Source: Prorocentrum cordatum (lineage: Eukaryota). From it: a stretch of DNA of 55,186 bases. The first letter of the stretch is position 1; the number at the start of each line of letters is the position of its first letter. The stretch is taken from contig CAUYUJ010000179.1 in NCBI GenBank assembly GCA_963575745.1, forward strand, positions 62,001-117,186, read 5' to 3'. The notes below the pieces were generated by a model. That model did no database searches, was not told the DNA's origin, and saw nothing but the letters and a program-made list of their open reading frames with translations. Made by a program: the position numbers and the translations under genes. Of this stretch, positions 1 through 51,485 are shown piece after piece.

Positions 1-2245
1 GCCCCCTTATCGCTGCAGACATCGGGTGGCCAGTAGATCAAGCCCCGGGCGGGCCGCCTGTTGAAGGGATGCTCGACGGAGGTGCTTTCCTGCTGGCACA
101 GGTACTTGCAGGTGTCGACGCGGGGTCAGCTCAAGACTCAGGGAAGTTTCTCACGGCGGCAGACGGGCTATCAGGCTCCGCTGCAGTGTTTTGAGCTGGG
201 ACGACCCTGCGCTTGCGTGCGGGTGTGGGCCCCCTTATCGCTGCAGACATCGGGTGGCCAGTAGATCAAGCCCCGGGCGGGCCGCCTGTTGAAGGGATGC
301 TCGACGGAGGTGCTTTCCTGCTGGCACAGGTACTTGCAGGTGTCGACGCGGGGTCAGCTCAAGACTCAGGGAAGTTTCTCACGGCGGCAGACGGGCTATC
401 AGGCTCCGCTGCAGTGTTTTGAGCTGGGACGACCCTGCGCTTGCGTGCGGGTGTGGGCCCCCTTATCGCTGCAGACATCGGGTGGCCAGTAGATCAAGCC
501 CCGGGCGGGCCGCCTGTTGAAGGGATGCTCGACGGAGGTGCTTTCCTGCTGGCACAGGTACTTGCAGGTGTCGACGCGGGGTCAGCTCAAGACTCAGGGA
601 AGTTTCTCACGGCGGCAGACGGGCTATCAGGCTCCGCTGCAGTGTTTTGAGCTGGGACGACCCTGCGCTTGCGTGCGGGTGTGGGCCCCCTTATCGCTGC
701 AGACATCGGGTGGCCAGTAGATCAAGCCCCGGGCGGGCCGCCTGTTGAAGGGATGCTCGACGGAGGTGCTTTCCTGCTGGCACAGGTACTTGCAGGTGTC
801 GACGCGGGGTCAGCTCAAGACTCAGGGAAGTTTCTCACGGCGGCAGACGGGCTATCAGGCTCCGCTGCAGTGTTTTGAGCTGGGACGACCCTGCGCTTGC
901 GTGCGGGTGTGGGCCCCCTTATCGCTGCAGACATCGGGTGGCCAGTAGATCAAGCCCCGGGCGGGCCGCCTGTTGAAGGGATGCTCGACGGAGGTGCTTT
1001 CCTGCTGGCACAGGTACTTGCAGGTGTCGACGCGGGGTCAGCTCAAGACTCAGGGAAGTTTCTCACGGCGGCAGACGGGCTATCAGGCTCCGCTGCAGTG
1101 TTTTGAGCTGGGACGACCCTGCGCTTGCGTGCGGGTGTGGGCCCCCTTATCGCTGCAGACATCGGGTGGCCAGTAGATCAAGCCCCGGGCGGGCCGCCTG
1201 TTGAAGGGATGCTCGACGGAGGTGCTTTCCTGCTGGCACAGGTACTTGCAGGTGTCGACGCGGGGTCAGCTCAAGACTCAGGGAAGTTTCTCACGGCGGC
1301 AGACGGGCTATCAGGCTCCGCTGCAGTGTTTTGAGCTGGGACGACCCTGCGCTTGCGTGCGGGTGTGGGCCCCCTTATCGCTGCAGACATCGGGTGGCCA
1401 GTAGATCAAGCCCCGGGCGGGCCGCCTGTTGAAGGGATGCTCGACGGAGGTGCTTTCCTGCTGGCACAGGTACTTGCAGGTGTCGACGCGGGGTCAGCTC
1501 AAGACTCAGGAAGTTTCTCACGGCGGCAGACGGGCTATCAGGCTCCGCTGCAGTGTTTTGAGCTGGGACGACCCTGCGCTTGCGTGCGGGTGTGGGCCCC
1601 CTTATCGCTGCACACATCGGGTGGCCAGTAGATCAAGCCCCGGGCGGGCCGCCTGTTGAAGGGATGCTCGACGGAGGTGCTTTCCTGCTGGCACACTTGC
1701 AGTTCGTCTGCCCACGGCCGTCCTGAGGTTCGGAAGAGTCGACGCAGGGTGAGCTCAAGACTCAAGAGTCTTCTCATGATGGCATACAGCTTATCAGGCG
1801 CCGCTGCAGTGTTTTGAGCTGGGACAACCCTGCGCTTGCGTGCGGGTGTGGGCCCCCTTATCGCTGCAGACATCGGGTGGCCAGTAGATCAAGCCCCGGG
1901 CGGGCCGCCTGTTGAAGGGATGCTCGACGGAGGTGCTTTCCTGCTGGCACACTTGCAGTTCGTCTGCCCACGGCCGTCCTGAGGTTCGGAAGTGTCGACG
2001 CAGGGTCAGTCCAAGACTCAAGAGTCTTCTCATGATGGCATACAGCTTATCAGGCGCTGCTGCAGTGTTTTGAGCTGGGACGACCCTGCAGCTGCGTGCG
2101 GGTGTGAGCCCCCTTGTCGCTGCACACATCAGATGGCCAGTAGATCAAGCCCCGGGCGGGCCGCCTGTTGAAGGGGTGCTCGACGGAGGTGCTTTCCTGC
2201 TGGCATACTTGCAGTTCGTCTGCTTGCTGCGGGCTTCAGGTTCAG
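1..2245. repeat. Tandem satellite: ~7 near-identical 228-bp units, then ~2.5 diverged 256-bp units; truncated by the window start
   Basis: Unit start gcccccttatcgctgcagacatc recurs at 1, 229, 457, 685, 913, 1141 and 1369. Identical ORFs recur every 228 nt. From ~1600 the period becomes 256 with an extra ttcgtctgccca... segment. Confidence 0.98.
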
Positions 2246-2626: not shown

Positions 2627-3658
2627 GGGACTCCTTTGGCGCATACCTGTCGTTGTATGCCCCCCTGGGTAATGGTAGCCATCTTAATTACGTGGGGGGG
2701 GGCTGAATACCCCCACATGTTGTTCCTCGCGCGCGTGCGATTGCGATCTCAGCGCATCCCCGCCCTGACGTGCCACACCTCGCCAAAGCGTTACCATTAC
2801 GGGGGTCCTCCCCAACGATCGTGACCGGACAGTCTTACAAAACCATTCTCGCTCTCTTGGGGCTCTCTTGGGCGCATTGGGGGCATTTGTGGGACCGTCT
2901 TAGAGGCCATCAATCATCAACTCGCTGGAGGCCGAGCAAATGCCTCTTGGGGCCCTCTTGTACTCTTGGGCGCTCGTGGAGCGCTCTTGGGCGCTCTTGG
3001 GGCCGTCTTGTACTCTTCTTGGGTTTTCATTGAAGCTCTCTCGGACCACCTTGAAGCCATCTTGAGGCCCGAGGGACCCATCGGGGGCGCACAGGCACGA
3101 AGACAACACACATGAATGTTGTCAAGATTTTGGATGGATTTTGCCCTTCTGGGGGGTCCTTGGGAGGCTCCCGCGCGTGTCCTCCACTGCGCTGTAGGGG
3201 AGCAGGTCTGGGGGTACCGGCGCTGTGGGAACGTGGAGGGGGGGTAGGAGGTAGAGGGCTGGGGGGAACACGGCTGTGAGTAGCATCATCGTGCAGAGTG
3301 TAAGGGCGCACTGTTTACGACTTGGCGCGAGCAGGGGGGGCGCTTTTGTTCTTGTTTCTGTCAGAAGCCCTGCCAGGCAGCTAAAACGCATTCTAACACG
3401 CCTCATCATGCAGGTGGCATTGGGCGGAACTGCCGTTCGGTTGCCCATTGGCGACCTCAGATGTTGGGCAGTGACAAACAGTGCGTGGAGCAGGAGCGGT
3501 ACCAGCCTGGTATGTTTCCTCCCCCAGTCGGCTATGATGCGTGCTGCGACGATCCTTCTGACTCGTGCCATGCTGTGTGCGTGCTGGCAGGGTAGGCCTC
3601 GAGCAGGACGCCACTGCTGTAATGTCATGTTGCTGTGTGCATTCATGCAGACACAGTA

Positions 3659-4434
3659 TATCCAGCTGCCAAAGGCAATTCCGCCACCGTGTCAGCGTAG
3701 TATTCTTGGTGGTGGCTATTGGAGAAAACACGGGAGGCCGTCACTTCTGACAACTCGGGCATCTCGAAGGCCTTGCGAGCATGTTGGGTGCCTTTTGTGG
3801 GGCTCTTGGGAGCGCCTCAGGGGTGCTTCGGAGGCTCTTGGGGGGCTCCTTGGGCCGTCTGAGGGTGCTCTTGGGCCATCTGGGCACTTTCGAAGTCCGT
3901 TTCGGGGGGCTATCTGTAGCATTGGGGCCCTCTTTTTGGGCTTCGAGGGCCGTCTGAAGGCTCCAATGTGCCGACCCAGGGTCCTCTTGGACCGCTCGTG
4001 GGCCATCTTGGAACCCTCTTGCGCCGCCTGGGGGCCCTCTTGAGGCCTTCGTGGGCCGTCTTGAGGCCATCTTGGAGGCGTCTTGGGCCGCCTTTAGCTC
4101 ACGGACGCCCGAAACTGTGAGAATTCGAACATCCATCACACACCGAAGGAACGCACATGGGTTTAGCCTCTTCTGACAATGCTGGAGGCTCCTTTCGAAC
4201 CCCCTTGCGCCGTCTTGAGAGTCTATTGCAGGCCATCTTGTACAGTCTTGAGACTATATCGGGCCGTCTTGGAGACATATCTCGGGCCATCTTGGTGGCC
4301 TTGGAGGCTTTCCTGGGCCATCACGTCGAGGCACCTAGGGAGCCTCGGGAGAAGGGTGTGGCCCTTTGAAGACCCCTGCCAGGCAGCGCTTGGTATTCTT
4401 CCACACCTCAACGTGCCAGGGGCACGGTGGCGGA
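3659..4434 (-). mobile_element. Family A non-autonomous element (Helitron/Helentron-like), copy A1
   Basis: Left end: tatccagc, hairpin tgcc-aaa-ggca, then IR tccgccaccgtg (3680-3691). Right end: cacggtggcgga (4423-4434). Interior is ggcctcttgg-type low-complexity DNA. Confidence 0.75.
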
Positions 4435-5262
4435 TTATCCAGCTCTTACGGGAGGTCCCGCCACCGTGCCTGGTTGCAGGCATGAAGGTTATTTGATGTT
4501 CTTTGGGATCTCGTGGGAGGCCTTTCGGGTGCCCCTTGGAGGCAGTCTTGGGGCCTCTCGGGGGTAGTTTTGGGGCCTTTCGGGGCATGTGTTGGGCCTC
4601 TTGGGGGCCTGTTGGGGCCTCTTGGGGGCCTTTCGGGGCCCCCGGGGGCCTCCTGGGGGCCTCTTAGGGCGGAAGGATCGGATTTTCGGTTCGTGTTCTC
4701 TCTCTCTTGGGCCTCTGTTGGGGACTTCTTGGGGCCCTCTGGGGCTTTCCTGGGCGCCTTGGCCGTCTTGGGGGGCTCTTAGGCAGTCTTGGGGCCCTCT
4801 TGGAGGCATCTTGGGCCGTTTTGGAGTGGTCTTGGTACGGCCTCTTGGGCCGTCTGGGAGCGTCGGGAAGCCGAAAATGCGATACAGCCAACATCTTTTC
4901 AACAACCACAGGAACACCATGTTTTTTTTTGCCTCTTGGGGCCCTCTTGGGAAGCCTCCTGGAGGCCTCTTGGGGCGTCTTGGAGGCCTCTTGGGCCATC
5001 GGAGGGCATCTTGGGCGTCTTCGAGCGATCGTTCGGCGACTCGGGGCCCTCTTGAACCGTCTTGAGGGCCTCCTGGGCCATCACTGAGGCTTTGGAGTTC
5101 CAGGGAGGCGCAATCGTCGCCCAGGGACCCCCCAGAAGTAGGGGTGGTGCAGATGGTTGGGTGCTTCCCGCGGAGGTTTTTTTTTAAAAAGACTACAGAA
5201 AATCCACCAGGCAGCCTTTGGTATTTTTCCAAGCCTCAACGTGCTGCAGGCACGGTGGCGGA
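4435..5262 (-). mobile_element. Family A element, copy A2, fused head-to-tail to A1
   Basis: Starts ttatccagc directly after A1. A 15-bp IR ccgccaccgtgcctg (4458-4472) pairs with caggcacggtggcgg (5247-5261). Its last ~45 nt resemble those of A1 (cctcaacgtgc...cacggtggcggattatc). Confidence 0.75.
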
Positions 5263-5344: not shown

Positions 5345-6120
5345 GGGCTGGCTCAAGTTCTTCACGGCGGCAGACAGCTTATCAGGCGCCGCTGCAGCGT
5401 TTTGAGCTGGGACGACCCTGCGCTTGCATGCGGGTGTGGGCCCCCTTATCGCTGCACGCATCGGGTGGCCAGTAGATCAAGCCCCGGGCGGGCCGCCTGT
5501 TGAAGGGATGCTCGACGGAGGTGCTTTCCTGCTGGCACAGGCACTTGCAGTTCGTCTGCCCACTGCGGGCCTCAGGTTCGGGGGTGTCGACGCGGGGTCA
5601 GCTCAAGACTCAAGGAGCTTCTCACGGCGGCAGACAGCTTATCAGGCGCCGCTGCAGCGTTTTGAGCTGGGACGACCCTGCGCTTGCATGCGGGTGTGAG
5701 CTCCCTTATCGCTGCACACATCGGGTGGCCAGTAGATCAAGCCCCGTGCGGGCCGCCTGTTGAAGGGATGCTCGACGGAGGTGCTTTCCTGCTGGCACAG
5801 ACACTTGCAGTTCGTCTGCTCACTGCGGGCCTCAGGTTCGGGAGTGTCGATGCGGGGTCAGCTCAAGACTCAAGGAGCTTCTCACGGTGGCAGACAGCTT
5901 ATCAGGCGCCGCTGCAGCGTTTTGAGCTGGGACGACCCTGCGCTTGCATGCGGGTGTGAGCCCCCTTATCGCTGCACACATCGGGTGGCCAGTAGATCAA
6001 GCCCCGGGCGGGCCGCCTGTTGAAGGGATGCTTGACGGAGGTGCTTTCCTGCTGGCACACGTGCTTGCAGTTCGTCTGCCCACTGCGGGCCTCAGGTTCG
6101 AAAGCGTCAGCGCAGGGTCA
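5345..6120. repeat. Continuation of the same satellite as three 260-bp units
   Basis: Same unit sequence; ORFs at 5424, 5684 and 5944 are spaced 260 nt apart. Confidence 0.95.
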
Positions 6121-6124
6121 GCGC

Positions 6125-7470: not shown

Positions 7471-7941
7471 ACAAGATGAGGCAGTAATCGAGGCGAGCCT
7501 GGCGTCAGTATGTACAGAGCGGTGAAATCGCTTCAGGATGCGTATGATAGGCCTGCCAGTGGCTGCCGCTGTAAGGACGGCTGTCTCTGGCCGACAGCGG
7601 GACACTAAAAGGAGAAGACCATGCTGCCCGAGAGCGGTATCATTCTTCCGATTCAGAAGGGAAGAGAAGGAGTGATATAGGCAGAAGGAAGAGGCGGAGG
7701 ATGATGAGGAGGAGGAGGTCCTCTCTCCTCCCTCCCTGTCCCTCCTTCCTTATCTATCCATCCCTCCGTCCCCCCTTCGTTTCTTTGTCCGCCGTCCCTC
7801 CCTCCCTCTGTCCCCTCCCCCCTGCCCCCACCTCGGCCCCCCCATTTCTCCCACCGCCCTTTCCGCCTCCCTTCCCTTCAGCGGTCCCTCTCTGACGTCC
7901 AGCACCGTCCCCGTTTGGAGTTTCCCGCCCAGGGCCGCCCG

Positions 7942-8491
7942 ATGACACCTCCGCCGTCAGCCTCGGCGGCCCGGGGGCAGTCCCTGGCGTGCCGGCCGCG
8001 CTCGGCGGTGTGCCAGTCGGCAGCGCAGGCTTCTCGCCAGGCGAGTCGCCGCCGACATCGGTCGAGAGACACCGCTCCTGCTGCAACCATCAGGAGCTGC
8101 GGAAACATGAAGCAGTGGAGTGCGGCTTTGAGCTTGCTCCGCGATGTGTCACAGTCTCGCACACGAGCGAGTGCAGCCCTTTACACTGCTGTCATTGGGG
8201 CCTGCGGAAGGGGGAAGGAGTGGCAGCAGGCGCTGGGATTGCTGAGTGAGTTCTTGGAGGCAGAGCTGGAGCTGGACGCAACAATCTGCAGTGCTGGTAT
8301 CGGCGCATGCGAGAAGGTTGGGGAGTGGCAGCAAGCATTGTTGTTGCTCGAGGACATGGGTGACGCGAACTTAGAACAGGACGTCATAAGCTTCGTTGTT
8401 GGACTCAGCGCGTGTGCGAAGGGTAGGCAGTGGCGGCAGGCATTGATGTTGCTCAGAGAAATGGATGAAGCATTATTTGAGCCTGATTTTA
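7942..8491 (+). CDS. PPR protein paralogue 1, coding segment 1 (N-terminal extension plus 4 PPR motifs)
   Basis: 35-aa repeats such as YTAVIGACGRGKEWQQALGLLSEFLEAELELDATI. ATG 7942 aligns with ATG 23120 of paralogue 2. Preceded by a long pyrimidine tract and CAG at ~7880. Confidence 0.88.
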
Positions 8492-9070
8492 TTGTAGTGG
8501 CCTTCGGCCAGTGCCGCCGATCCGGGGCGCTCCGACTGATGTGATCCTTCTTCGCCCTCGTCCCTCCTCTCTTTTTCCCTCCCCTCCTCTCACTCAGCAT
8601 TTATCCAGTGGCCGTCGGCCTATCCCGCCACCGTGCGTGGGTGGTGGGTCAGAGGCCTCATGGATGCTGGTTGGGATCTCGTGGTTGGCTGGGACTTCTG
8701 GGGGCCTCTTGGGCGCCTCTTGGGGCTTCTTGGGGGCCTCTTGGGCCTCTTGGGGCCACTAGAGGGCCTCTTGGGGGTCTCTTGGGAGCCTCTTGGGGCT
8801 TCTTGGGGGCCTCTTCTGCGCCCCTTGGGGCCTCTTGGAGGCCTCCTCGGAGCCTCTTGGTGCGGGAGGGGTGGTACTCGAGTTCGGAACCCCCTCGGAG
8901 GCCACGATCCTTGTGAGGGGTGTCAAAAAACGCATCCGCCGGAAACTCGCACCCCCCCCCCCCACCCCCCCTTCCCCGGCAGAGCCACCCCGGCAACCCC
9001 CCCAGAGGCTGAGGCTCAGCCTCGAGGCTGTAGCTGAGACTCCTTGAAACTCACACGCCGGATCGGCGGA
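8492..9070 (-). mobile_element. Family A element (579 bp) inserted in the PPR1 coding sequence; candidate TE-derived intron
   Basis: Removal gives GAT TTT ATT AGT CAT AGT GCC GCC ATG (DFISHSAAM), the uninterrupted peptide of paralogue 2 at ~24545-24571. Hairpin ggcc-ttc-ggcc, IR ccgccgatccgg (8514-8525) / ccggatcggcgg (9058-9069), cacacgcc motif. Confidence 0.85.
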
Positions 9071-10013
9071 TTAGTCATAGTGCCGCCATGAGCGCGTGTG
9101 GATCATGTGGGCGATGGCAGCAGGCGCTCTTGCTGCTCAGCAAATTATTGGGAGTGCGGCTGAGGCCAGACGTAATCGCCCTCAATGCCGCGATAAGCGC
9201 GTGCGAGAAGGGAGAGCAATGGCAGCAGGCGCTGTTGCTACTTCGAGACGTAAGTGAACTGAGACTAGAACTGAACGCCATTGGGTGTAGCGCTGGAATC
9301 AGTGCTTGCGGGAAATGTGGGCAGTGGCAGCGAGCTTTGTCGCTGCTCGACGAGATGCGGGAGGCGAGTTTGGAGCCCACTTTGATCAGCTATAATGCTG
9401 CAATCAGCGCGTGCGCAGAAGGCGAACAGTGGCAGCACGCACTACTGCTGCTCAGTGATGTGCTCGAGGCGAATCTGGAAGTGGACGTAATCGGCTGCAG
9501 CGCTGGAATTAGCGCGTGCGGAAATGGTGGAGCTTGGAGGCAGGGTCTGTCGCTGCTCCGCCACATGCAGGGAGCACAGTTGGAGCTGGGCGTCGTCAGC
9601 TACAGCGCCGGAGTCAGCGCATGTGACAGAGCTGGCCAGTGGCAACAGGCGCTGATGCTGCTCAGAGAGATGGGAGACGTCAGAGTGCAGCCCAACGTGG
9701 CGAGCTACGGCGCGGGGATCAGCGCGTGCGAAAAGGGGGGCCAGTGGCAGCATGCGCTTTCGTTGATCAGGGGAGCTCGCTCGCTGCTGGACGTCGGCTG
9801 CTTCAATGTCGGAGTCCAAGCATGCGGAAGAGACGGACACTGGCAGCAGGCGCTGCTGCTGCTCAGTGAGCTGCGGGCACTGCGGCTGGAGCCCGACATC
9901 GTCAGCTACAGCGCTGCAGTGAGCGCGTGCGGAAACGGCTGGCAGTGGCAGCGCGCGCTTCTTCTGCTAGCTGAGATGGTGGAGGCTAAAGTGGAGCCAG
10001 ACGCCATCCTAGG
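9071..10013 (+). CDS. PPR protein paralogue 1, coding segment 2 (9 PPR motifs)
   Basis: ORF 9088..10047 has tandem YNAAISAC..GEQWQHALLLLSDV..LE.DVI motifs and is in the same frame as segment 1. Confidence 0.95.
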
Positions 10014-10176
10014 GAGCCCCAAGGAACGGGTGAAACGCGCACACTAACTCGTCGATCCTTATCTTCTGCCTGCTCCCAAGGCAGCAGTATTTTGAGGGAG
10101 CCTGGGGGTGTGGGAGGAGAGAACTCGTCAAGTTTATGCAGATTTCGTCGCCTGCTTTTTCTGCCCCCTACATCAG
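10014..10176 (+). other. Probable spliceosomal intron with non-canonical GA donor (GA...AG, 163 nt)
   Basis: AGG|gagcc...pyrimidine tract...catcag|C TTT AAT restores the frame between ORFs 9088 and 10136. Homologous donor (aggg agcc, ~25697) and acceptor (tcgcc.gct..ttctg.cccc...cag, ~25852) regions exist at the same position in paralogue 2. Confidence 0.65.
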
Positions 10177-10804
10177 CTTTAATGCTGGAGTCAGCGCGTG
10201 CCAGAAAGGAAGCGTGTGGAGAAATGCGCTGTGGCTCCTCAGAGAGATACGTGAGGTTTTGCTGGAGCCCGACATCGTGGGTTACAGCGCTTCAATAAGC
10301 GCGTGCGAGCAAGACAGGCAGTGGCAGCAGGCGCTGTTGCTGCTCTTCGAATCGATGGAAAAGCAGTTGGAGCCGAACGAATTGACCTACAGCGCTGGAA
10401 TCGGCGTGTGCGGGGCCAGCGGGCAGTGGCAGCAATCGCTGTCTCTGCTCAGCGAAATGCACGAAGCGAGGTTGTCGAGCGCTTTCGGCCACAGTGCCGG
10501 AATCAGCGCGTGCGGGGACGCTCAGCTGTGGTCGCAGGCGATCTCGCTGCTCAGAGAAGCAGAGACGCTAAAACTGGAGCTGGACGTCGTTTGCTACAGT
10601 GCTGGCGTCAGCGCTTGCGAGAAGGGCAGGCAGTGGCAGCAGGCGCTGTCGCTGCTCGGCGAGGCGCGGCGGGCGAGGCTGGGGCCAAACATCGTCTGCT
10701 GCGGCGCCGGAATTGGCGCGTGCGCGGTCTGCGGGAAGCCGCAGCAGGCGCTCTCGTTGCTCGGCGAGATTCGGGAGGCGGGGCTAACGCCTGACGTGAT
10801 CAGC
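10177..10804 (+). CDS. PPR protein paralogue 1, coding segment 3 (6 PPR motifs); 3' end uncertain
   Basis: PPR motifs in ORF 10136..11047 run to ...LTPDVIS, after which the ORF is low complexity. Possible donor g|gtaagt at 10830. Confidence 0.9.
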
Positions 10805-11019
10805 CAGGGGCGGGAAACGGAGGACCATGGTAAGTGGGGAGCGGAGGATCTAGGGGAGGTGGGGCAGGGAGGCGAAGGGGCTAGCGCGAGAAGCAGCAGA
10901 AGGATGGAGAGTAGGCTGAGGATGATGACTATGGTGGTGCTGGTGGTCGTGAAGGTGGTTGTGGTGATGATGTTGTTGACGTTGATGCTTATGTCGATGC
11001 CGATATCGATGTTGCTGCT

Positions 11020-11833
11020 GTTGAATACTCATTTCGAGAGAAAATGATTGTTGATCTCTAGAAACGGTTCCGCGCGCTCTCGCCTCGACGCCGGTTGCAG
11101 TTCTTCTGAAAACGAGGCTTCCGCTCGAGCGCGGGCTTGAGTGTAAATGTTCCCCCTGGAGACTCGGCTACAACGACAACGGTTCCCGCTCGATACTTCC
11201 TCACAGTTACCCCGAGACACCCTGGCCAGAGAGGACTCCGAATTCAGGAACGGCGGTCTCGCTCGAGACTGCCTCGCAATTCAATCAAGTTGGCGGAGGC
11301 CCAGCCACGACGACAAGGGCTCCTGCTTGATACTTCCTCACGATTTACTCCAAGAGCCTCTGGCCAGGAAGGCCCCCAAACTCAGGAACGGCGCTCTCGC
11401 TCGAGACTTTCTCGCGATTCAGTCAAAATGGTGGAGGCCCAACCACGACGACAAGGATTCTCGTTCGATACTTCCTCAAGATGTATTCCCAGAGGCCCTG
11501 GCCAGAGAGGCCCCTGAACTCAAAAGTGGCGCTCTCGCTCGAGGCTTTCTCGCAATTTCCGGCGAATTGGTGGAGGCCCAGACACGGCGACAAGGGTTCC
11601 CGTTCGATATTTCTCAATATGTATTCCGAGAGGCCCTGGCCAGAGAGGCCCCCGAACTCAGGAACGGCGCTCTCGCTCGAGAGTACCTCGCACATCAGTC
11701 AGTGGCCGACAAGGAAGATATTCCCCTCCGACGGGGGCTGCGATCGAAAACGAAATGGGCGGGTATCGAGCGTTGGGGTATACAGAATGCAAGACACGCG
11801 TGTCCGTAAAAACGAACAGTCTTAAACTGATTG
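11020..11833. mobile_element. Family C (GTT-tract-associated) element with ~3.5 internal ~138-bp tandem repeats
   Basis: Begins gttgaa-AT-rich-ttgttgatc and ends gaacagtcttaaactgattgtt. The unit cctggccagagagg...ctcgctcgag recurs at ~11220, 11357, 11497 and 11634. Shares blocks with 14078-14700. Confidence 0.6.
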
Positions 11834-16094: not shown

Positions 16095-17175
16095 CGAAGG
16101 CTTACGGTCGGTGCCGCCGACCCTGAGAACGACGAAGATGAAAACGAGGGGGGGCAGGGGGAGGAAGATGAGTTGGAGGTGGAGAAAGGGCGGTGTAGGT
16201 GGATGAGGGAGGAGGGTGGGGAGAAGGATGTGGAGGAGAAGCAAGATGAGGAGAAGGAGGCAGAGGAGAGCAGAGGGGGGAGGAGGAGGAGCATGATGAG
16301 GAGGAGGAGGAGGAGGAGGAAGAAGAGGAAGAGGAGGAGGCCAGAGGCTTTCTTGGGACGGCCTGGGGCTCTCTTGATCTCCTCTTGCGCCGTCTCGAGG
16401 CACTCTTGGAGGCCTCCTGGGCAATTTGGGGCTCTCCTGGGCTGTCTTGGGGCCGTTTTGGGCCCCCTTGGGAGCCTCTTGTGGCCTCTTGGGGCTTCTT
16501 CGGGGCCTCTTGGGGGCCTCTTGGGGCTGTGAGCTCGAAACGTCCATTCGGGTCCCCCGTCTGGGCACTCTCCTGGAGCCGTCTTGGGGGCCTCTTGGGC
16601 CGTCTTGGGGGGCGATCTTGGGGGCCTCTTGGGCCGTCTTGGCGCGTCGGGAAGCAGAAGAGGCAAGAACGCCAAAATCTTTCAACAACGTATGGGAAAT
16701 CAATGAATTTCGCCTCTTGGGGCTCTCGTGGGAAAGCTCCTGGAGGCCTCTTGGGGCGCTTTGCAGGCTGGGCCGTCTGGAGGCCGTCAAGGCGTCTTGG
16801 ACAGATCGTTCGGCGATTCGGGGTTCTCTTGGACTGCCTTTGGGGCCTCTTGGGGCACTCTTGGTCCGTCTTGGGGCTTTTTTGGGCTCCCGGACTCCCA
16901 GGGGGGCGTCGTATCTGACCCCCCCCCCGGGGATCCCCCCCCCACCCCCCCACCCCCTGGCGCGGAGGGGGGCTTCCCTTCGACTCAATTACGACGTTGC
17001 TCAACTTTGCTTTGGCTGGCGCGCTGAGGAGGTCCCTGGGAAAGGGGAGAGTTTCGACGAGCCCAGGGAAAGGTGGGAGGCAGGGAAAGGGGGCGACAGA
17101 GACGACGACCAACGAATGACGGAAATGACGACTTGAACGGACAAGCCCCTCACACACGCCGACAGGGTCGGCGGA
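16092..17175 (-). mobile_element. Family A element inserted in a TA-rich microsatellite
   Basis: Left: ttgcgaaggcttacggtc plus IR ccgccgaccctg (16114-16125). Right: cacacgccga plus cagggtcggcgga (17163-17175). The TA/TACA-rich host continues on both sides. Confidence 0.8.
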
Positions 17176-23119: not shown

Positions 23120-23511
23120 ATGTTGTCTCCGCTGTCAGACCTGGCAGCCCAGAGGCAGCAACTTGTGGGCGGGCAGCACGTGGAGTGTCAGTCGGCAGCC
23201 CAGATCCCTCTCACAGCTAGTTGGCGCGGTTCCCGGTCGAGCGGCAGTTCTCCTCTAGCAGCCATCAAGAATTGCGGAAGCACAGCGCAGTGGACAACGG
23301 TGCTGAGTTTGCTCCGTGATGTGTCACAGTCTCGCGCAGAAGCTGGCGCAGTTCTCTACACTGCTGCGATTGGCGCTTGTGGAAGAGGGAAGGAGTGGCA
23401 GCAGGCTTTGGGCTTGCTGAGCGACTTCCGAAACGCAGAGTTGGAGCTGGACGCAAAAATCTGCAGTGCTGGGATCGGCGCGTGCGAAAAGGTTGGGGAG
23501 TGGCAGCAGGC
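23120..23511 (+). CDS. PPR protein paralogue 2, coding segment 1
   Basis: LSLLRDVSQSRAEAGAVLYTAAIGACGRGKEWQQALGLL aligns with paralogue 1 segment 1. Confidence 0.88.
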
Positions 23512-24396
23512 GTTAGTTTCATTGCTGCGCTCACTCCGCCAGCCCATGCTGTATCACCGCTGGCACTTACCTGTGTGATCGCGGGGGCTCAGAAGTCGGT
23601 GGGTCACGAGCTTTTCCCTGGGCTGTCGCGTGAACATTGCTTGGAAGAGAAGTATTGGCAGGGTAGTTGCAAGGCAACGCTCAATGAAGCACCCCCATCG
23701 AAGTTCCGTCGGTGCATCCTGTCGCGGTGCCCAGGTTATGGGTCAGAGGCGTTATGGATGCCTCGCGGCTTCTCTTGGGATGCTTCTCGGGGGGCCTCTT
23801 GGAGGCCTGCGTATTCGGGGCCTCTTGGGGCCTCTTGGGCCCCCCCCCTGATTGGGGGCCTCTTGGGGCCCTGAGGGCTTCTGGGGACCTCGTGAGGCCT
23901 CTTGGGGGCTTCTGGGGGGCTCGTGGGTCCTGCTGGCGGTCTCGGATGCCCCCTTGGGGACCTCTTTGAGATTTCTTGGGCCGTCTTAAGGCTCTCTTGG
24001 GAGCCTCTGGAGCCGTCTTGGAGCGATCTCGGAGGCCTCTTGGGCCGTCTTGAGAAAACGCGAGGGCTCAAATGTTTCAATTTTGCGTCGTGAGGCTCTC
24101 TTTCGGGTCCTCTTGGACCGTCTTGGGTGTCTCTTGGGCCGTCTTGAACTCATCTTGCGCTCTGGTGACGTCTCGGGGCCCTTGAAGCTCCCTTGGGGCG
24201 CTCCTGGGGCTTTAGTGGGTGTCCAGAAGCCAGCGCCCAGGAGTTCCGGCATCTCTGAACCGACCTTGCTAGGACCTTGCCGGGACCTGGGCGAGTCTTC
24301 TTCCCCCAGGGGCCGCTGCGCGCACGATCTCGTAACATACAGATACTCTGGAACTCCTACCAGAGATTCTAGCACGCCTTTGGCCCGTTGGGCCAG
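23512..24396 (+). other. 885-nt insertion absent from paralogue 1; candidate GT-AG intron derived from a family A-like element
   Basis: GC|gttagt...ggccag|C GAC TTT TTG CTC GAG gives QQADFLLED versus QQALLLLED in paralogue 1 (same length). The interior has ggcctcttgg cargo; the right end has cacgcc and the palindrome tggccc-gtt-gggcca. Confidence 0.7.
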
Positions 24397-25489
24397 CGAC
24401 TTTTTGCTCGAGGACATTCGCGAGGCGAACTTAGAGCAGGACGTCATAAGCTTCGTTGTTGGAGTCAGCGCGTGTGCGAAGGGCGGTCAGTGGCAGCAGG
24501 CGTTGATGTTACTCAGGGACATGGAGGAAGCAAACTTTGAGCCTGATTTTATCAGCCACAGTGCCGCCATGAGCGCGTGTGGGAGATGTGGGCAGTGGCG
24601 GCAGGCGCTCTTGCTTCTCAGAAAGTTATTGGGGGCGGGGCTGCGGCCAGATGTCATCGGCTTCAATGCCGCGATAAGTGCGTGCGAGAAGGGAGAGCAA
24701 TGGCAGCAGGCCCTGTTGCTCCTTAGAGAAGTCGGTGAATTCAAGCTCGAGCTGAACGCCATTGGGTGCAGCGCTGGAATCACTGCGTGCGGGAAATGTG
24801 GACAGTGGCAGCACGCCTTGTCGCTGCTTGGCGAGATGCGGGAGGCGAGGTTGGAGCCCAATGTCTTCGGCTACAATGCTGCAGTCAGCGCGTGTGCGGA
24901 AGGCGAACAGTGGCAGCAGGCGTTGTTGTTGCTCAGCGAGATTTTAGAGGCGAAGCTGGAAGCGGACGTCATTGGCTGCAGCGCTGGGGTCAGCGCGTGC
25001 GGGAATGGCAGAGCTTGGCAGCAGGGTTTGTCGCTGCTTCGCCACATGCGGGGAGCACAGTTGGAGCTGGGCGTTGTCAGCTACAGCGCTGGAATCAGCG
25101 CGTGTGAAAATGCCGGGGAGTGGCAGCAGGCGGTGATATTGCTCAGGGAGATGGGCGAAGTGAGAGTGCAGGCCAACGTGGCAAGTTACGGCGCGGGAAT
25201 CAGCGCGTGCGAGAAGGGGGGCCAGTGGCAGCACGTGCTTTCGTTGATCAGGGAAGCTTACTCTCTGGTTGACGTCGGCTGTGTGAACGTTGGAATCCAA
25301 GCGTGCGGCAGAGACGGGCACTGGCAGCAGGCGCTGATGCTACTCAGCCAGCTGCGGGCGCTGCGTCTGGAGCCTGACGTCGTCAGCTACAGTGCTGGAG
25401 TGAGCGCGTGCGGGAACGGCGGGCAGTGGCAGCGCGCGTTAGGATTGCTACTTGATATGGTGGAGGCGAAGGTGGAGCCAGACGCCATC
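24397..25489 (+). CDS. PPR protein paralogue 2, coding segment 2 (10 PPR motifs)
   Basis: PPR portion of ORF 24050..26026, colinear with paralogue 1 from LLED to VEPDAI. Confidence 0.95.
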
Positions 25490-25490
25490 A

Positions 25491-25693
25491 TTCGGAGAGC
25501 AAAAGGCTGCGTAAACATAATTTCTCGGAGGTCCACGCCGATTTCTTGGATCGGCACTGGGGCCCCCCTGGCGGCGCCTCTGGTGGCGCCCCTGGCGCGC
25601 TCTGCGCGCCAGGGTGGGGGGTCCAGCGCAGATCCAAGAAATCCGCGCGGACCTCCGAGAAATTATGCTTGGGCAGTTCCTCATTGCTTAAGT
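25491..25693. mobile_element. MITE-like fold-back element at the exon/intron junction of PPR2
   Basis: Perfect 19-bp IR cataatttctcggaggtcc (25516-25534) / ggacctccgagaaattatg (25649-25667), a 13-bp inner IR gatttcttggatc / gatccaagaaatc, and imperfect outer arms. Absent from paralogue 1. Confidence 0.85.
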
Positions 25694-26529: not shown

Positions 26530-26695
26530 GGAGGAGGAGGAGGAGGAGGAGGAGGAGGAGGAGGAGGAGGAGGAGGAGGATGACGAGGAGGAGGAGGAGG
26601 AGGAGGAAGAGGAGGAGGAGGAGGAGGAGGAGGAGGAGGGGGAGGAGGGGGAGGAGGGGGGGGACGAGGCGGCGGAGGGGGAGGAGGATGAGGAC
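26530..26695. repeat. (GAG)n microsatellite
   Basis: Direct reading. Confidence 0.95.
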
Positions 26696-26916: not shown

Positions 26917-31930
<5,014 letters not shown>

Positions 31931-32220: not shown

Positions 32221-33029
32221 GAGGTTGTAATCCGGTTGTAATCCGGTGTCCGTCTGGTAGATTTCGTATAGGATTTTTTCGCGTTGCGGTCGGCCCCTGT
32301 TCGGTGGTTGGAATCCGCCCCAGGTAGTCGGTGCACGGCCCGAAGTGGTTGCAACCGGCCTTCTTCCCGAGGATGAGTAGGAGGTGGAGGAGGAAGAATG
32401 ATTATTAGTTGCCTTCGCTCCAACTTGCCACCGTGCCCAGGTTGTGGGTCATCGGGTTCCCTGGGGGGTGTCAGTTGGGTCATGTCGATGAATGCCTTTC
32501 GGAGTCTGTGAGGATGCCTTTCGGGGGCCTCTCAGGGGTATGTTGGGGACTTCTTGGACCTCTTGGTGACTCGGGGGCCGCTTGGGGGCCGCTTAGGGGG
32601 CCTCTTGGAGGCCTGTTGGGAGCCTTTTGGGACCTCTTAGGCGCCTCTTGGGGCATTGGGGACTCTCTTTGGAGCGTTTTGGGACGTATTGGTGCCATCC
32701 AGGAGGCAATCGATCAACGGAAAGGGGGGCCTCAATCAACATCGCCCTCCCCCCCCCGCCCCAGGAACCCCAAAGGGGCCTACCACTTTAGGACAATCGG
32801 TGATTTGTGCCTTCTCGGCGCTGCCTTCTTGGACGCTTTGACCGCTCTCCGCTTCCCCTCCAGGTGTGGGGGGTCGGGGGAGGAGTCAAGACACTTCCTG
32901 CCCACAAAGGCGCAAACCGCCTCGCTCACTCCCGCCCGCCCTCCCAACACGGATATACATATACAGATATGTATATAGTTGTATATAATGTGTGTATGTG
33001 TAGCACCCGGTTATCCCTTTAACAAACAA

Positions 33030-51292: not shown

Positions 51293-51485
51293 TTTCATGA
51301 ACACGGATTTCTTATTATGGGCCTTGTAGTAAGGATTCCTTAGTCAGGGTCCGTTAGTCAGGATTCCTGATTAACGATTCCTTAGTATGGACTCTTCACT
51401 GAGGTTCCTTGAGTACTGATTCTTCACCACAGGGGTTCTCAGTAGGGATTCCTGACCAAGGTTCCCTGAGTAAGGATTTGTTAAA

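What the first reader, a model, noticed from the sequence alone, without database searches (positions are those of the whole stretch)
8492..9070. Rolling-circle-type element splits a PPR exon and could be spliced out (candidate Helitron-like introner)
Seen: a 579-bp insert sits precisely within the ATT (Ile) codon, and paralogue 2 shows the empty site (DFISHSAAM). On the minus strand it starts TC, lies between A and T, and ends in a subterminal IR plus a GGCC-GAA-GGCC hairpin. The flanking exons remain open and in frame. An element-borne donor (CA|gtgccg, 8511) paired with host AG acceptors (9074 or 9080) would restore the frame with 3-5 extra residues. Established: introners create introns using element and host splice sites and are known in dinoflagellates; a TC start, A|T target and 3' hairpin are Helitron hallmarks. 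Inference: a non-autonomous rolling-circle family is generating new introns here.
Basis: partly seen in the sequence, partly recalled or inferred. Interest (0 to 1): 0.85.

Follow-up and report, generated by a model that had tools for sequence, protein, structure and literature searches.

The report
Mobile insert cut precisely from mRNA
A 579-base repeat-derived insert that splits one copy of a dinoflagellate PPR gene is absent, to the base, from the gene's transcripts, so it behaves as a newly gained intron, but one without normal splice signals and not shown to be a Helitron.

Summary
A 579-nt insert (8491-9069, placement ambiguous by 3 nt because ATT stands at both edges) interrupts an Ile codon of a PPR gene. 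Paralogue 2 has the uninterrupted site. The insert has a perfect 12-nt inverted repeat (8514-8525/9058-9069), a small hairpin (8499-8509), an 11-nt minisatellite and no coding capacity.

New evidence: in 4 of 4 transcript-like runs from 4 studies, one contig joins 8490 to 9070 and skips exactly 579 nt. The frame is restored with no extra residue. None of the four possible border pairs is GY..AG. The gene's second intron (10006-10171, shared with paralogue 2) is also non-GY..AG, with a 4-nt direct repeat and an imperfect inverted repeat.

This matches the "introner elements" with direct and inverted repeats and non-canonical borders described in Amoebophrya, and counted by repeat pattern in other dinoflagellates. 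Other transcribed copies share the same two ends.

The Helitron assignment is not supported: there is no CTRR end, and the TC start and A|T target hold for only one of four placements. The asymmetric ends, hairpin and central repeats do resemble non-autonomous Helentrons. The transposon class stays open. This is a new member of a known kind, of moderate interest.

The parts
8107..8490 (+). Exon 1 of PPR paralogue 1, from the ATG at 8107 to the last base before the insert
   Evidence: It is an open frame and matches PF13041/PF01535. RNA contigs cover 7931-8490 with 0 mismatches (X1 record 1).
8491..9069 (+). The 579-nt insert, which acts as intron 1. The borders can slide up to 3 nt to the right (as far as 8494-9072).
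   Evidence: The paralogue alignment breaks here. One contig in each of 4 of 4 runs joins 8490 to 9070, skipping 579 nt, with 'both' = 3. No Pfam match was found in its 3 longest ORFs and no credible Rfam match.
8491..8493 (+). Left copy of the 3-nt direct repeat ATT. It is constant in other copies of the element's left end.
   Evidence: The fits of other-context contigs start at 8487, 8489, 8490 and 8491 (tables 7 and 8).
9070..9072 (+). Right copy of ATT. This is the host Ile codon kept in the mRNA.
   Evidence: Paralogue 2 has ATC at 24551-24553.
8499..8509 (+). Small hairpin GGCC-TTC-GGCC, lying between the left border and the left inverted-repeat arm
8514..8525 (+). Left arm of the perfect 12-nt inverted repeat. 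It starts 23 nt inside the left border.
   Evidence: I8. It pairs in the MFE and centroid folds and in the two-piece fold. Control: 7 of 17198 segments.
9058..9069 (+). Right arm of the 12-nt inverted repeat, abutting the right border
8491..8604 (+). Left-end unit, shared at 95% identity or more with other transcribed copies that have different flanks and diverge after 8604/8605
   Evidence: X1 record 2 (8489-8604), X5 record 15 (8487-8605), X10 records 8 and 11, and loose ends at 8490/8491 in X1, X9 and X10.
8603..8690 (+). Internal module 'M'. It starts with a second hairpin, GGCC-GTC-GGCC, and is about 66-74% like four other places in the window, three of them just upstream of the same minisatellite.
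   Evidence: The direct repeat 8496-8518 / 8607-8629 is 83% identical (D5).
8697..8860 (+). Minisatellite with an 11-nt unit (TGGGGGCCTCT), about 15 copies
   Evidence: The same satellite occurs at about 2942-5077, 16351-16887, 23706-24146, 32523-32700 and 50719-51118, always on the + strand.
8886..8940 (+). Piece resembling one monomer of the window's 77-89-nt satellite
   Evidence: 74-86% identity to 51085-52219, 41754-42442 and, on the minus strand, 45821-46615. Satellite arrays are listed.
8969..9070 (+). Right-end unit found in other transcribed contexts
   Evidence: X9 record 20 covers 8969-9070 with 0 mismatches and then 224 nt unlike the window. X1 record 4 covers 9020-9070 and the contig ends at 9070.
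9070..10005 (+). Exon 2 of PPR paralogue 1
   Evidence: It is an open frame of 312 aa and matches PF13041 at E=1.3e-31. Homologues are dinoflagellate PPR proteins.
10006..10171 (+). Intron 2 (166 nt). It also has non-GY..AG borders, a direct repeat CATC (10005-10008 / 10171-10174) and an imperfect inverted repeat whose outer pair is 10010/10170.
   Evidence: Joints 10004->10171 (X1) and 10005->10172 (X5, X9, X10) are. The sequence is and the fold. Its ends are homologous to those of paralogue 2's intron.
10172..10795 (+). Exon 3 of PPR paralogue 1. The 3' limit was not determined.
   Evidence: PF13041 at E=1.5e-14. RNA contigs reach about 10663.
24545..24559 (+). Uninterrupted ('empty') site in paralogue 2

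Best explanation
After the PPR gene duplicated, a composite, non-coding mobile element of 579 nt inserted into an Ile codon of paralogue 1.

The element has conserved ends: a left unit at 8491-8604 and a right unit at about 8969-9069. Its variable interior consists of module M, an 11-nt minisatellite and a satellite-monomer piece.

The gene is still transcribed, and the whole element is removed from the transcript exactly at the 3-nt repeat ATT. The original codon and frame are restored.

Removal does not use GY..AG splice sites. The likely guide is RNA structure. The perfect 12-bp stem formed by the inverted repeat, together with the small 5' hairpin, brings the two exon ends side by side. 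The same has been proposed for the direct-repeat/inverted-repeat 'introner elements' and non-canonical introns of Amoebophrya, and for the nonconventional introns of euglenids.

Shown: the insertion, its repeats, its absence from paralogue 2, its exact absence from transcripts, a second non-canonical intron in the same gene, other transcribed copies of both ends, and purifying selection on the gene.

Inferred: that removal happens at the RNA level at this very locus, that the stem guides it, and which enzyme does it (a permissive spliceosome or another pathway). The transposon superfamily is unresolved.
For: Transcript evidence. In 4 of 4 runs laid, from 4 studies, one contig per run joins 8490 to 9070 and skips 579 nt. 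One run (X9) is on record as PolyA RNA-Seq. The shorter side of the join is 156, 156, 40 and 156 nt. X1 record 1 has 0 mismatches over 716 nt.

The runs behave as RNA. Depth is 0 in all four runs at 7700-7816, 10040-10156 and 10742-11200. Intron 2 is also skipped in 4 of 4 runs.

Transcripts of paralogue 2 cannot explain the joint. The paralogues are only 85-88% identical and the mapping threshold was 95%.

Borders. The possible pairs are AT..GG, TT..GA, TG..AT and GT..TT. For intron 2 they are CA..TA, AT..AC, TC..CA, CC..AT and CT..TC.

Intron 2 predates the duplication, because its ends are homologous in both paralogues. Its absence from RNA therefore cannot be an insertion polymorphism. Removal of non-GY..AG sequences from RNA is real in this organism.

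Structure. The 12-nt inverted repeat is rare by chance (7 of 17198). It pairs in the MFE and centroid folds of the intron; the fold's z-score is -3.7 against 20 shuffles. It also pairs in the two-piece fold (-44.9 kcal/mol).

Selection. dN/dS is 0.20 (interval 0.13-0.28) and dS is 0.48 over 362 codons. Retention of the insert would stop translation at 8542-8544.

Multi-copy ends. Other contigs carry 8487/8489/8490/8491-8604 and 8969/9020-9070 with unrelated flanks.

Literature. Amoebophrya introner elements are non-canonical introns with 8-20 nt inverted repeats between the intron ends and 3-5 nt direct repeats over the borders (PMC7789003, passages). The same repeat pattern was counted in 2.4% of P. 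cordatum introns (PMC10666404, supplement passages).
Against: Only Logan contigs could be laid, not raw reads. Splicing efficiency, lariats and the unspliced precursor were therefore not seen, and 651 further records were not listed.

No DNA run of the same strain was laid. An insert-free allele or gene copy, identical in its exons, cannot be excluded as the source of the joined contigs.

None of the contigs listed (651 further records were not shown) bridges exon 1 into the insert or the insert into exon 2. Transcription through the insert at this locus is therefore inferred, not shown.

The copies seen elsewhere are known only from short contigs. Whether they are introns is unknown.

No second copy with these ends is in the 55-kb window: 1 and 2 motif matches, all within the insert itself.

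The guiding role of the stem is an analogy, not a test.
Confidence: 0.7

Rival explanations
1. The joined transcripts come from an insert-free allele, strain or extra gene copy. On this reading the insertion is a polymorphism, or is specific to the sequenced strain, and the insert-bearing copy is a null allele that is not processed.
For: The joined form is exactly the empty site, which is also what an unoccupied allele would look like. The runs carry at least three organism labels and may be different strains. No listed contig bridges an exon-insert border. Dinoflagellate genes are often multi-copy (general knowledge).
Against: All 4 of 4 runs from 4 studies show the joined form, with 0-2 mismatches to this locus including its 5' untranslated part from 7931. 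Intron 2 is old and shared by both paralogues, yet it is likewise missing from RNA at non-GY..AG borders, so the organism does remove such sequences. The exons downstream of the insert are intact, and dN/dS is 0.18 there.
Confidence: 0.15
2. This concerns the class of the mobile element and is compatible with the best explanation. The insert is a non-autonomous rolling-circle element, read on the minus strand. It would be Helentron/HINE-like rather than a canonical Helitron, would be mobilised in trans by a Rep/helicase element, and would insert without a target-site duplication.
For: Read on the minus strand, the 12-nt repeat arm lies 0-3 nt from the 5' end. The other arm lies 20-23 nt from the 3' end and is followed by a small palindrome 5-8 nt from the end. 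Central tandem repeats fill 28% of the element. This is the layout given for HINEs: 12-15 bp subterminal repeats 2-4 nt from the 5' end, a palindrome near the 3' end, central repeats, and no target-site change (PMC4067079, passages).

The left ATT is constant in at least 4 other contexts, while another copy's right flank differs right after 9070. That argues against a duplicated target.

The flank at 8487-8490 is T in this locus and partly T in 3 other contexts.

Helitron-derived introners exist in a fungus (PMC12130899, passages).
Against: Canonical Helitron ends are not met. There is no CTRR, and TC and A|T hold under only one of four placements.

For Helentrons, the 3' repeat arm should lie 38-60 nt from the end, and the flanks should be T in the element's own orientation. 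Here they are A in that orientation, and T only on the other strand.

No Rep/helicase or any transposase was found in 36 of the window's longest ORFs or in the insert. No genome is available to search.

The left 114 nt may be a separate unit next to a nested element, which could mimic asymmetry.
Confidence: 0.2
3. This also concerns the class of the mobile element. The insert is a cut-and-paste DNA transposon derivative (MITE) with a 3-bp target-site duplication ATT and degenerate or nested ends.
For: ATT stands on both sides. The element has a perfect 12-nt inverted repeat, no coding capacity and conserved ends around a variable interior. Most classified introners derive from terminal-inverted-repeat transposons (about 82%, PMC12130899). 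Amoebophrya elements were likened to MITEs (PMC7789003).
Against: The left repeat arm is 23 nt internal, not terminal, and the true left end (GTAGTGG..) has no counterpart at the right end. The ATT on the left recurs in at least 4 other contexts, whereas another copy's right flank differs after 9070. The ATT is therefore not a locus-specific duplication.
Confidence: 0.15
4. The joined form is a reverse-transcriptase template-switch artefact across a structured region bounded by direct repeats. On this reading the mRNA really retains the insert.
For: Short direct repeats, non-canonical ends and a stem joining the ends are the known signature of such artefacts (recalled general knowledge, not read here).
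Against: The joined contig has the same depth as the flanking exon bins (X1 16.5; X5 6) and is the only listed form across the site in 4 of 4 independent studies. Retention would truncate a gene that shows purifying selection downstream. The same would have to hold for intron 2.
Confidence: 0.03
5. One reading: a spliceosomal intron that uses the element-borne GT donor at 8511 and a host AG at 9074 or 9080, adding 3-5 residues.
For: The motifs exist in the sequence. A 9-nt identity, AGTGCCGCC, stands at 8510-8518 and 9079-9087.
Against: No such joint is present in any of 4 runs. The observed joint is 8490|9070 with no added residues.
Confidence: 0.01

Closest known systems
Introner elements / non-canonical introns of Amoebophrya sp. 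A25 and A120 (Farhat et al. 2021, PMC7789003). The same repeat pattern was counted in introns of Prorocentrum cordatum, Polarella and Amphidinium (Dougan et al. 2023, PMC10666404).
   Same: Borders are non-GT..AG with no fixed dinucleotides. A 3-5 nt direct repeat overlaps the exon/intron borders (here ATT; CATC in intron 2). An 8-20 nt inverted repeat links the two intron ends (here 12 nt, perfect). The element is non-coding and repeated in the genome. A hairpin is predicted to bring the exon ends together.
   Different: The host looks like a large-genome, high-GC, non-parasitic-type dinoflagellate. The window has long satellites and few genes, and its PPR homologues come from core dinoflagellates. 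For those, the papers I read describe GT/GC/GA..AG splicing only. The left repeat arm is set back 23 nt behind a small hairpin. The interior carries a minisatellite and a satellite monomer. At 579 nt it is longer than the Amoebophrya means (120 and 240 nt).
Introners of Symbiodiniaceae and Polarella glacialis (Roy et al., bioRxiv 10.1101/2020.10.14.339549, published in Curr Biol 2023; Gozashti et al. 2022 and 2025)
   Same: A mobile element inserts into an exon and is then removed from the transcript, creating a lineage-specific intron. The ends carry inverted repeats and a short repeat stands at the borders.
   Different: Those introners create GH..AG introns, and one or both splice sites are recruited from the target-site duplication. 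Here no placement gives GY..AG, and the repeated ATT does not behave as a duplication.
Non-autonomous Helentrons (HINE / DINE-1; Thomas et al. 2014, PMC4067079) and satellite-carrying Helentron derivatives in oyster (PMC7492417, listing only)
   Same: The ends are asymmetric. A roughly 12-nt repeat arm sits at one terminus. The other arm is subterminal and is followed by a small palindrome. There are central tandem repeats, no evident target-site duplication, and a T/A-rich site.
   Different: The distance of the 3' arm from the end is 20-23 nt, against 38-60. The flanks are A, not T, in the element's own orientation. No Rep/helicase partner is known here. The group has not been reported from dinoflagellate introners in the papers I read.
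Nonconventional introns of euglenids (PMC4770533, abstract start seen in the listing)
   Same: Borders are variable and non-canonical. An RNA secondary structure brings the intron ends together. The removal mechanism is unknown.
   Different: The lineage is unrelated. Those introns are not known as recently mobile, multi-copy elements. No sequence relationship was tested.
Identically repeated intron boundaries of dinoflagellate introns (Mendez et al. 2015, PMC5032977)
   Same: A 2-9 nt sequence is repeated at both borders and kept once in the mRNA, so the exact cut is ambiguous.
   Different: Those repeats always contain GG, usually AGG, and are compatible with AG|G splicing. ATT and CATC contain neither.
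Canonical Helitrons (features recalled: 5' TC, 3' CTRR, 3' hairpin, A|T target, no duplication)
   Same: There is a small hairpin near one end and no evident duplication. One of the four placements gives a TC start between A and T.
   Different: There is no CTRR end. The hairpin has only a 4-bp stem. An inverted repeat links the ends, which canonical Helitrons lack. The A|T rule is not met in another copy.

Membership tests
Introner element, direct-repeat/inverted-repeat type (Farhat 2021; search rule of Dougan 2023) | An inverted repeat of 8-20 nt between the 5' and 3' ends of the intron, within about 30 nt of each end | tested here: met
   A perfect 12-nt repeat at 8514-8525 / 9058-9069. The left arm starts 23 nt from the border and the right arm abuts it. 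Chance control: 7 of 17198.
Introner element, direct-repeat/inverted-repeat type (Farhat 2021; search rule of Dougan 2023) | A direct repeat of 3-5 nt overlapping the exon/intron borders | tested here: met
   ATT at 8491-8493 and 9070-9072 ('both' = 3). The left copy appears to belong to the element rather than to a duplicated target.
Introner element, direct-repeat/inverted-repeat type (Farhat 2021; search rule of Dougan 2023) | Removed from transcripts (an RNA-supported intron), with borders other than GT..AG | tested here: met
   The joint 8490->9070 is present in 4 of 4 runs. The possible borders are AT..GG, TT..GA, TG..AT and GT..TT. Contigs only; the same-strain DNA control is missing.
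Introner element, direct-repeat/inverted-repeat type (Farhat 2021; search rule of Dougan 2023) | Repeated in the genome as a family of introns | tested here: inconclusive
   Both ends occur in other transcribed contexts: at least 4 left-end flanks and at least 1 right-end flank. Whether those copies are introns is unknown. No second copy is in the window and no genome is held.
Spliceosomal introner (Roy / Gozashti sense) | Creates an intron with GT/GC/GA..AG borders, often recruited from the target-site duplication | tested here: not met
   No placement gives GY..AG.
Spliceosomal introner (Roy / Gozashti sense) | Many near-identical copies located in introns of unrelated genes | not testable with these tools
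   No genome assembly is held. The metagenome scan gave only one chance bacterial match and two viral scans gave none.
Canonical Helitron | 5' TC and 3' CTRR termini (recalled definition) | tested here: not met
   On the minus strand the 3' end reads ..CTACAA or ..CTAC under the possible placements. TC is obtained under one placement of four.
Canonical Helitron | Insertion between host A and T without a duplication (recalled definition) | tested here: inconclusive
   Possible at this locus under one placement. In another copy the match ends at 9070, so the next base is not T there (X9 record 20). No duplication is evident.
Canonical Helitron | A hairpin of about 16-20 nt some 10-12 nt before the 3' end (recalled definition) | tested here: inconclusive
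   An 11-nt hairpin with a 4-bp stem, 5-8 nt from the end. The position is right but the size is small.
Canonical Helitron | A Rep/helicase-encoding autonomous partner with the same termini | not testable with these tools
   None was found in the window among 36 of its longest ORFs. The genome is not available.
Helentron-associated non-autonomous element (HINE; Thomas 2014) | Subterminal inverted repeats of 12-15 bp, 2-4 nt from the 5' end | tested here: met
   12 nt, lying 0-3 nt from the minus-strand 5' end.
Helentron-associated non-autonomous element (HINE; Thomas 2014) | The 3' repeat arm 38-60 nt from the 3' end, with a 5-10 bp palindrome 8-35 nt from the end | tested here: not met
   The arm is 20-23 nt from the end. 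The palindrome has a 4-bp stem and lies 5-8 nt from the end. The order of parts is the same but the distances are different.
Helentron-associated non-autonomous element (HINE; Thomas 2014) | Insertion in TT with T runs flanking both ends in the element's orientation, and no target change | tested here: not met
   [quoted passage not shown] T runs are on the opposite strand.
Helentron-associated non-autonomous element (HINE; Thomas 2014) | Central micro- or minisatellite repeats (frequent, not obligatory) | tested here: met
   An 11-nt unit in about 15 copies at 8697-8860, plus a satellite-monomer piece at 8886-8940.
Terminal-inverted-repeat DNA transposon / MITE | Inverted repeats at both extreme termini, and a locus-specific target-site duplication | tested here: not met
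   The left arm is 23 nt internal. ATT at the left is constant across at least 4 other contexts, while a right flank differs.
Dinoflagellate intron with identically repeated boundary (Mendez 2015) | A 2-9 nt border repeat that contains GG, usually AGG | tested here: not met
   The repeats are ATT and CATC, with no GG or AG. The rule was read in PMC5032977, sections 11 and 15.

The most novel reading that the evidence does not exclude
A structure-guided intron-removal route that ignores GY..AG is so far described only for the parasite Amoebophrya and, in another form, for euglenids. On this reading it also operates in a free-living-type, large-genome dinoflagellate.

There it would let splice-site-less, asymmetric (rolling-circle-like, satellite-carrying) elements settle inside exons and be cut out to the base.

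Both introns of this one transcript (2 of 2) are of this kind. Annotations built with GY..AG-restricted tools would therefore miss or mis-model a whole class of introns and genes.
Probability: 0.3. Interest if true: 0.8.

Novelty: new member of a known kind. Interest (0 to 1): 0.5.

Why it matters
This is a clean, datable case of intron gain. Two paralogues (dS about 0.48) differ by one insertion, the empty site is preserved in the sister copy, and transcripts from four studies lack the insert to the base.

It shows that an element carrying no usable GY..AG sites can still be tolerated inside a coding exon.

If the excision is confirmed at the RNA level in the same strain, non-canonical introns bounded by direct and inverted repeats would extend beyond Amoebophrya. 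The locus would also give a defined substrate (a 12-bp stem, a 3-nt repeat, a small hairpin) for asking how such introns are recognised.

In practice, gene predictors limited to GT/GC/GA..AG would truncate or split this gene.

Tried and rejected
The whole genome of the window is not held, so no family census was possible.

Both end motifs were searched in the window. They match only the insert itself: 1 match and 2 matches, the second being the left repeat arm.

A metagenome scan with a 22-nt left-end motif gave one locus, L001. It is a bacterial contig encoding a sigma-54-type regulator, with no further similarity, so it is a chance match.

Two viral-collection scans with end motifs gave 0 loci.

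Earlier notes of this scan gave nothing by place, by sequence or by words.

The Rfam scan of 8300-9300 gave only two sub-threshold miRNA-model matches (E 0.49 and 0.88), taken as chance.

Pfam gave no hit for the 3 ORFs in the insert. It gave one sub-threshold hit in 36 of the window's longest ORFs, so no transposase or Rep/helicase was found.

Two protein searches with exon 2 found only relatives of 50% identity or less. They were dinoflagellate PPR proteins; among the 'near'-length hits the best E-value was for a Prorocentrum cordatum entry. No record of the window's own protein was found, so the public gene model could not be inspected.

A canonical GT(8494)..AG(9074) intron was considered. 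It would remove 581 nt and shift the frame, and it is contradicted by the 579-nt joint.

A U12-type AT..AC reading of intron 2 was considered. It is only one of five equivalent placements and has no further support.

Parts of the insert without cover in some runs (for example 8870-8986) are not used as evidence.

Its introns are therefore untested.
Full report
WHAT IS THERE

The window is GC-rich (about 0.55-0.65 outside a 5-kb AGT microsatellite) and full of satellites. Two paralogous PPR genes lie on the + strand.
- Paralogue 1: 8107-8490, 9070-10005 and 10172 onward.
- Paralogue 2: about 23287-23514, 24401-25497 and 25847 onward.

The exon pieces of paralogue 1 match PPR models (PF13041 E=1.9e-10, 1.3e-31 and 1.5e-14). 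Their homologues are dinoflagellate PPR proteins from Polarella, Symbiodiniaceae and Prorocentrum, all at 50% identity or less.

The paralogue alignment breaks exactly at the reported insert. 8341-8492 matches 24401-24552 and 9070-10016 matches 24551-25497, both ungapped, at 85-88% identity. Paralogue 2 reads GAT TTT ATC AGC CAC (24545-24559). Paralogue 1 reads GAT TTT ATT, then 579 nt, then AGT CAT. Because ATT stands at 8491-8493 and at 9070-9072, the insert can be written in four equivalent ways.

ANATOMY OF THE INSERT

From left to right:
- ATT.
- A small hairpin, GGCC-TTC-GGCC (8499-8509).
- The left arm of a perfect 12-nt inverted repeat (8514-8525).
- A pyrimidine-rich stretch.
- A second, similar hairpin that opens an internal module 'M' (8603-8690).
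- An 11-nt minisatellite of about 15 units (8697-8860).
- A piece resembling one monomer of the window's 77-89-nt satellite (8886-8940).
- A C-run.
- A short palindrome (9005-9042).
- The right arm of the inverted repeat (9058-9069), which abuts the border.

The 12-nt repeat is not a chance feature. Of 17198 random 579-nt segments of the window, 7 had a perfect inverted repeat of 12 nt or more between their first and last 40 nt.

Nothing in the insert matches Pfam (0 of 3 ORFs). Rfam gave only two sub-threshold matches.

Module M is 66-74% like four other places in the window (4456, 17739, 23706 and 32407). The minisatellite follows it at 4456, 23706 and 32407, and also stands at about 16351 and 50719, always on the + strand. 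The copy at 23706 lies in an 886-nt sequence (23515-24400) that interrupts paralogue 2 where paralogue 1 is continuous. The two paralogues have thus each taken up related repeat material at different sites.

TRANSCRIPT EVIDENCE

A search for sequencing runs with 7900-11100 found 20 holders. The best held about 0.63 of the sampled words, which is roughly the exon share of that stretch.

I laid four runs from four studies on 7700-11200 at 95% likeness or more. X9 is on record as PolyA RNA-Seq. X1, X5 and X10 are unlabelled.

All four runs behave as RNA. Depth is zero in all of them at 7700-7816, 10040-10156 and 10742-11200.

In each of the 4 runs, one contig joins 8490 to 9070 and skips 579 nt.
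- Three letters fit on either side of the joint.
- The shorter side of the joint is 156, 156, 40 and 156 nt.
- X1 record 1 covers 7931-8490 plus 9070-9225 with 0 mismatches.
- The joined contig has the depth of the exon bins beside it (X1 16.5; X5 6).

The mRNA therefore reads ..GAT TTT ATT AGT CAT... This is the empty-site sequence, in frame and with no added residue.

None of the 13 listed joints starts at 8510/8511 or ends at 9074/9080.

A GT(8494)..AG(9074) intron would remove 581 nt and is also excluded.

The four possible border pairs are AT..GG, TT..GA, TG..AT and GT..TT. None is GY..AG.

A SECOND INTRON OF THE SAME KIND

All four runs also skip 166 nt at 10004/10005 -> 10171/10172. CATC stands at 10005-10008 and 10171-10174. 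The five possible border pairs (CA..TA, AT..AC, TC..CA, CC..AT and CT..TC) again include no GY..AG. A long imperfect inverted repeat pairs the two intron ends, with 10010/10170 as the outer pair. Removal restores a perfect PPR motif (..EPDAISFNAGVSAC..).

The ends of this intron are homologous in both paralogues, so it predates the duplication. Its absence from RNA therefore cannot be an insertion polymorphism.

This is the main reason to read the 579-nt gap as RNA-level removal too. In this transcript, 2 of 2 introns are non-canonical and bounded by direct and inverted repeats.

IS THE INSERT A MOBILE FAMILY?

No second copy with these ends lies in the window. No genome is held.

The RNA contigs, however, show both ends in other contexts.
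- 8489-8604 (X1 record 2), 8487-8605 (X5 record 15) and 8490-8545 (X10 record 8) have unrelated sequence on both sides.
- Loose ends begin just before 8490/8491 in X1, X9 and X10.
- On the right, X9 record 20 covers 8969-9070 with 0 mismatches and then runs on for 224 nt unlike the window.
- X1 record 4 covers 9020-9070 and the contig ends at 9070.

So conserved ends (about 114 nt on the left, 50-100 nt on the right) flank a variable interior. That is what is expected of a non-autonomous element.

The left ATT is present in all of at least 4 other contexts, whereas a right flank differs immediately after 9070. The ATT repeat therefore looks like an element end that happens to match, or was chosen to match, the host codon. 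It does not look like a target-site duplication.

SELECTION

Over 362 aligned codons around and downstream of the insert, dN is 0.094 and dS is 0.477. dN/dS is 0.20, with a bootstrap 95% interval of 0.13-0.28. If the insert were retained, translation would stop at 8542-8544. The gene is expressed and its exons are intact.

HOW IT MOST LIKELY WORKS

The element inserted after the duplication. It is transcribed within the pre-mRNA and is removed exactly at the repeated ATT.

The 12-bp stem pairs in the minimum-energy and centroid folds of the intron. The minimum-energy fold is -293.6 kcal/mol, with z = -3.7 against 20 shuffles. It also pairs in a two-piece fold of the ends (-44.9 kcal/mol). Together with the small 5' hairpin, it places the two exon ends next to each other.

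Shown: the insertion, the repeats, the exact absence from transcripts and the second such intron.

Inferred: removal at the RNA level at this locus, guidance by the stem, and the enzyme involved.

COMPARISON WITH WHAT IS KNOWN

Amoebophrya A25 and A120. More than 60% of their introns lack GT..AG. A subset, the 'introner elements', have 8-20 nt inverted repeats between the intron ends and 3-5 nt direct repeats over the borders, with a hairpin proposed to join the exons (PMC7789003, passages). The present element meets these features.

Other dinoflagellates. Dougan et al. searched the same repeat pattern (within 30 nt of each intron end) in other dinoflagellates. They report it in 2.4% of P. cordatum introns. 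That genome has 59.7% G+C, and only 79.7% of its acceptors carry AGG, against 93% or more in other free-living species (PMC10666404, passages and supplement passages). Their pipelines recognised GT/GC/GA donors.

Suessiales. Introners there create GH..AG introns from target-site duplications (bioRxiv 10.1101/2020.10.14.339549, parts 1-2).

Repeated intron boundaries. The repeated boundaries of Mendez et al. always contain GG, usually AGG (PMC5032977, abstract and sections 11 and 15).

The 2024 review. It attributes 'other boundaries' to Amoebophrya (PMC11453091, passages).

My three searches listed no paper describing non-GY..AG introns bounded by direct and inverted repeats in a free-living dinoflagellate. 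This is a limited search of open-access text only.

Host. The window's low gene density, long satellites and core-dinoflagellate homologues argue against Amoebophrya as host. I did not prove the species.

THE HELITRON QUESTION

Canonical hallmarks (recalled) fail or are ambiguous.
- No CTRR end.
- TC and A|T are obtained under one of four placements.
- The hairpin stem has only 4 bp.
- The inverted repeat that links the ends is not a Helitron feature.

Read on the minus strand, the layout does resemble non-autonomous Helentrons (PMC4067079, passages). The repeat arm sits at the 5' terminus, the other arm is subterminal and followed by a palindrome, there are central tandem repeats, and no duplication is evident.

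Two features differ. The distance of the 3' arm is 20-23 nt rather than 38-60 nt. The flanking base is A rather than T in the element's own orientation. No Rep/helicase could be sought.

Helitron-derived introners are known from a fungus and make up about 1% of classified families (PMC12130899, passages).

I give the rolling-circle class about 0.2 and a cut-and-paste MITE about 0.15. The rest is unknown.

LIMITS

- Only contigs were laid. No raw reads and no DNA run of the same strain were laid, and 651 records were not listed.
- An insert-free allele or copy remains possible (about 0.15).
- A reverse-transcriptase artefact is unlikely (about 0.03).

VERDICT

The insert is a real, recently gained, precisely excised intron of the introner-element kind with non-canonical borders. 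Its splice sites were mispredicted and its Helitron identity is unproven.

Noticed in passing
window 23515-24400: An 886-nt sequence interrupts paralogue 2 within ..QQAL|LLED.., where paralogue 1 is continuous (only 8340 lies between the aligned blocks). It carries a copy of module M and the same minisatellite as the 579-nt insert, and ends with a hairpin, GGCCC-GTT-GGGCC. Its removal from RNA was not tested. An in-frame GT..AG|G alternative (about 23513-24309) would add about 30 non-PPR residues.
   Followed up: partly
window 25507-25676: The intron of paralogue 2 that corresponds to intron 2 holds a 170-nt foldback with 61-nt arms, 85% complementary. It is absent from paralogue 1's shorter intron and looks like a secondary MITE-like insertion.
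   Followed up: partly
window 10006-10171: Intron 2 of paralogue 1 is RNA-supported in 4 of 4 runs and has no possible GY..AG borders. It has a 4-nt direct repeat, CATC, and an imperfect inverted repeat. It is shared with paralogue 2.
   Followed up: yes
window 8510-8518 and 9079-9087: A 9-nt identity, AGTGCCGCC, stands inside the element's left end and in exon 2, ten bases beyond the right border. It may be chance or microhomology at the insertion site. It extends the predicted pairing of the left end with exon 2 in the folds.
   Followed up: no
window 41020-42458 (+), 45735-46717 (-), 47063-49794 (-), 51545-52293 (+), 53450-55186 (+): Large arrays of a 77-89-nt satellite lie on both strands and fill much of the last 15 kb. 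Its unit contains a GGCCTTCGG motif like the element's hairpin, and the insert carries about one monomer-like piece (8886-8940).
   Followed up: partly
window 26917-31929: A 5-kb AGT microsatellite of about 1674 units has strong GC skew. A GGA array stands just before it at 26530-26694.
   Followed up: no
window 1-2223 and 5362-6122: Tandem repeats of 228/256/260-nt units at 93-99% identity stand at the start of the window. A related array lies at 5362-6122.
   Followed up: no
window 2942-5077, 16351-16887, 23706-24146, 32523-32700, 50719-51118: The GGGCCTCTTGG-type minisatellite recurs at five other regions. It is always in the same orientation as the PPR genes.
   Followed up: partly
window 10656-10663: RNA contigs of paralogue 1 all break here, with several different continuations and very high depth (up to 1756). 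This probably reflects collapse of a conserved PPR motif in the contig graph. The 3' end of the gene was not defined.
   Followed up: no
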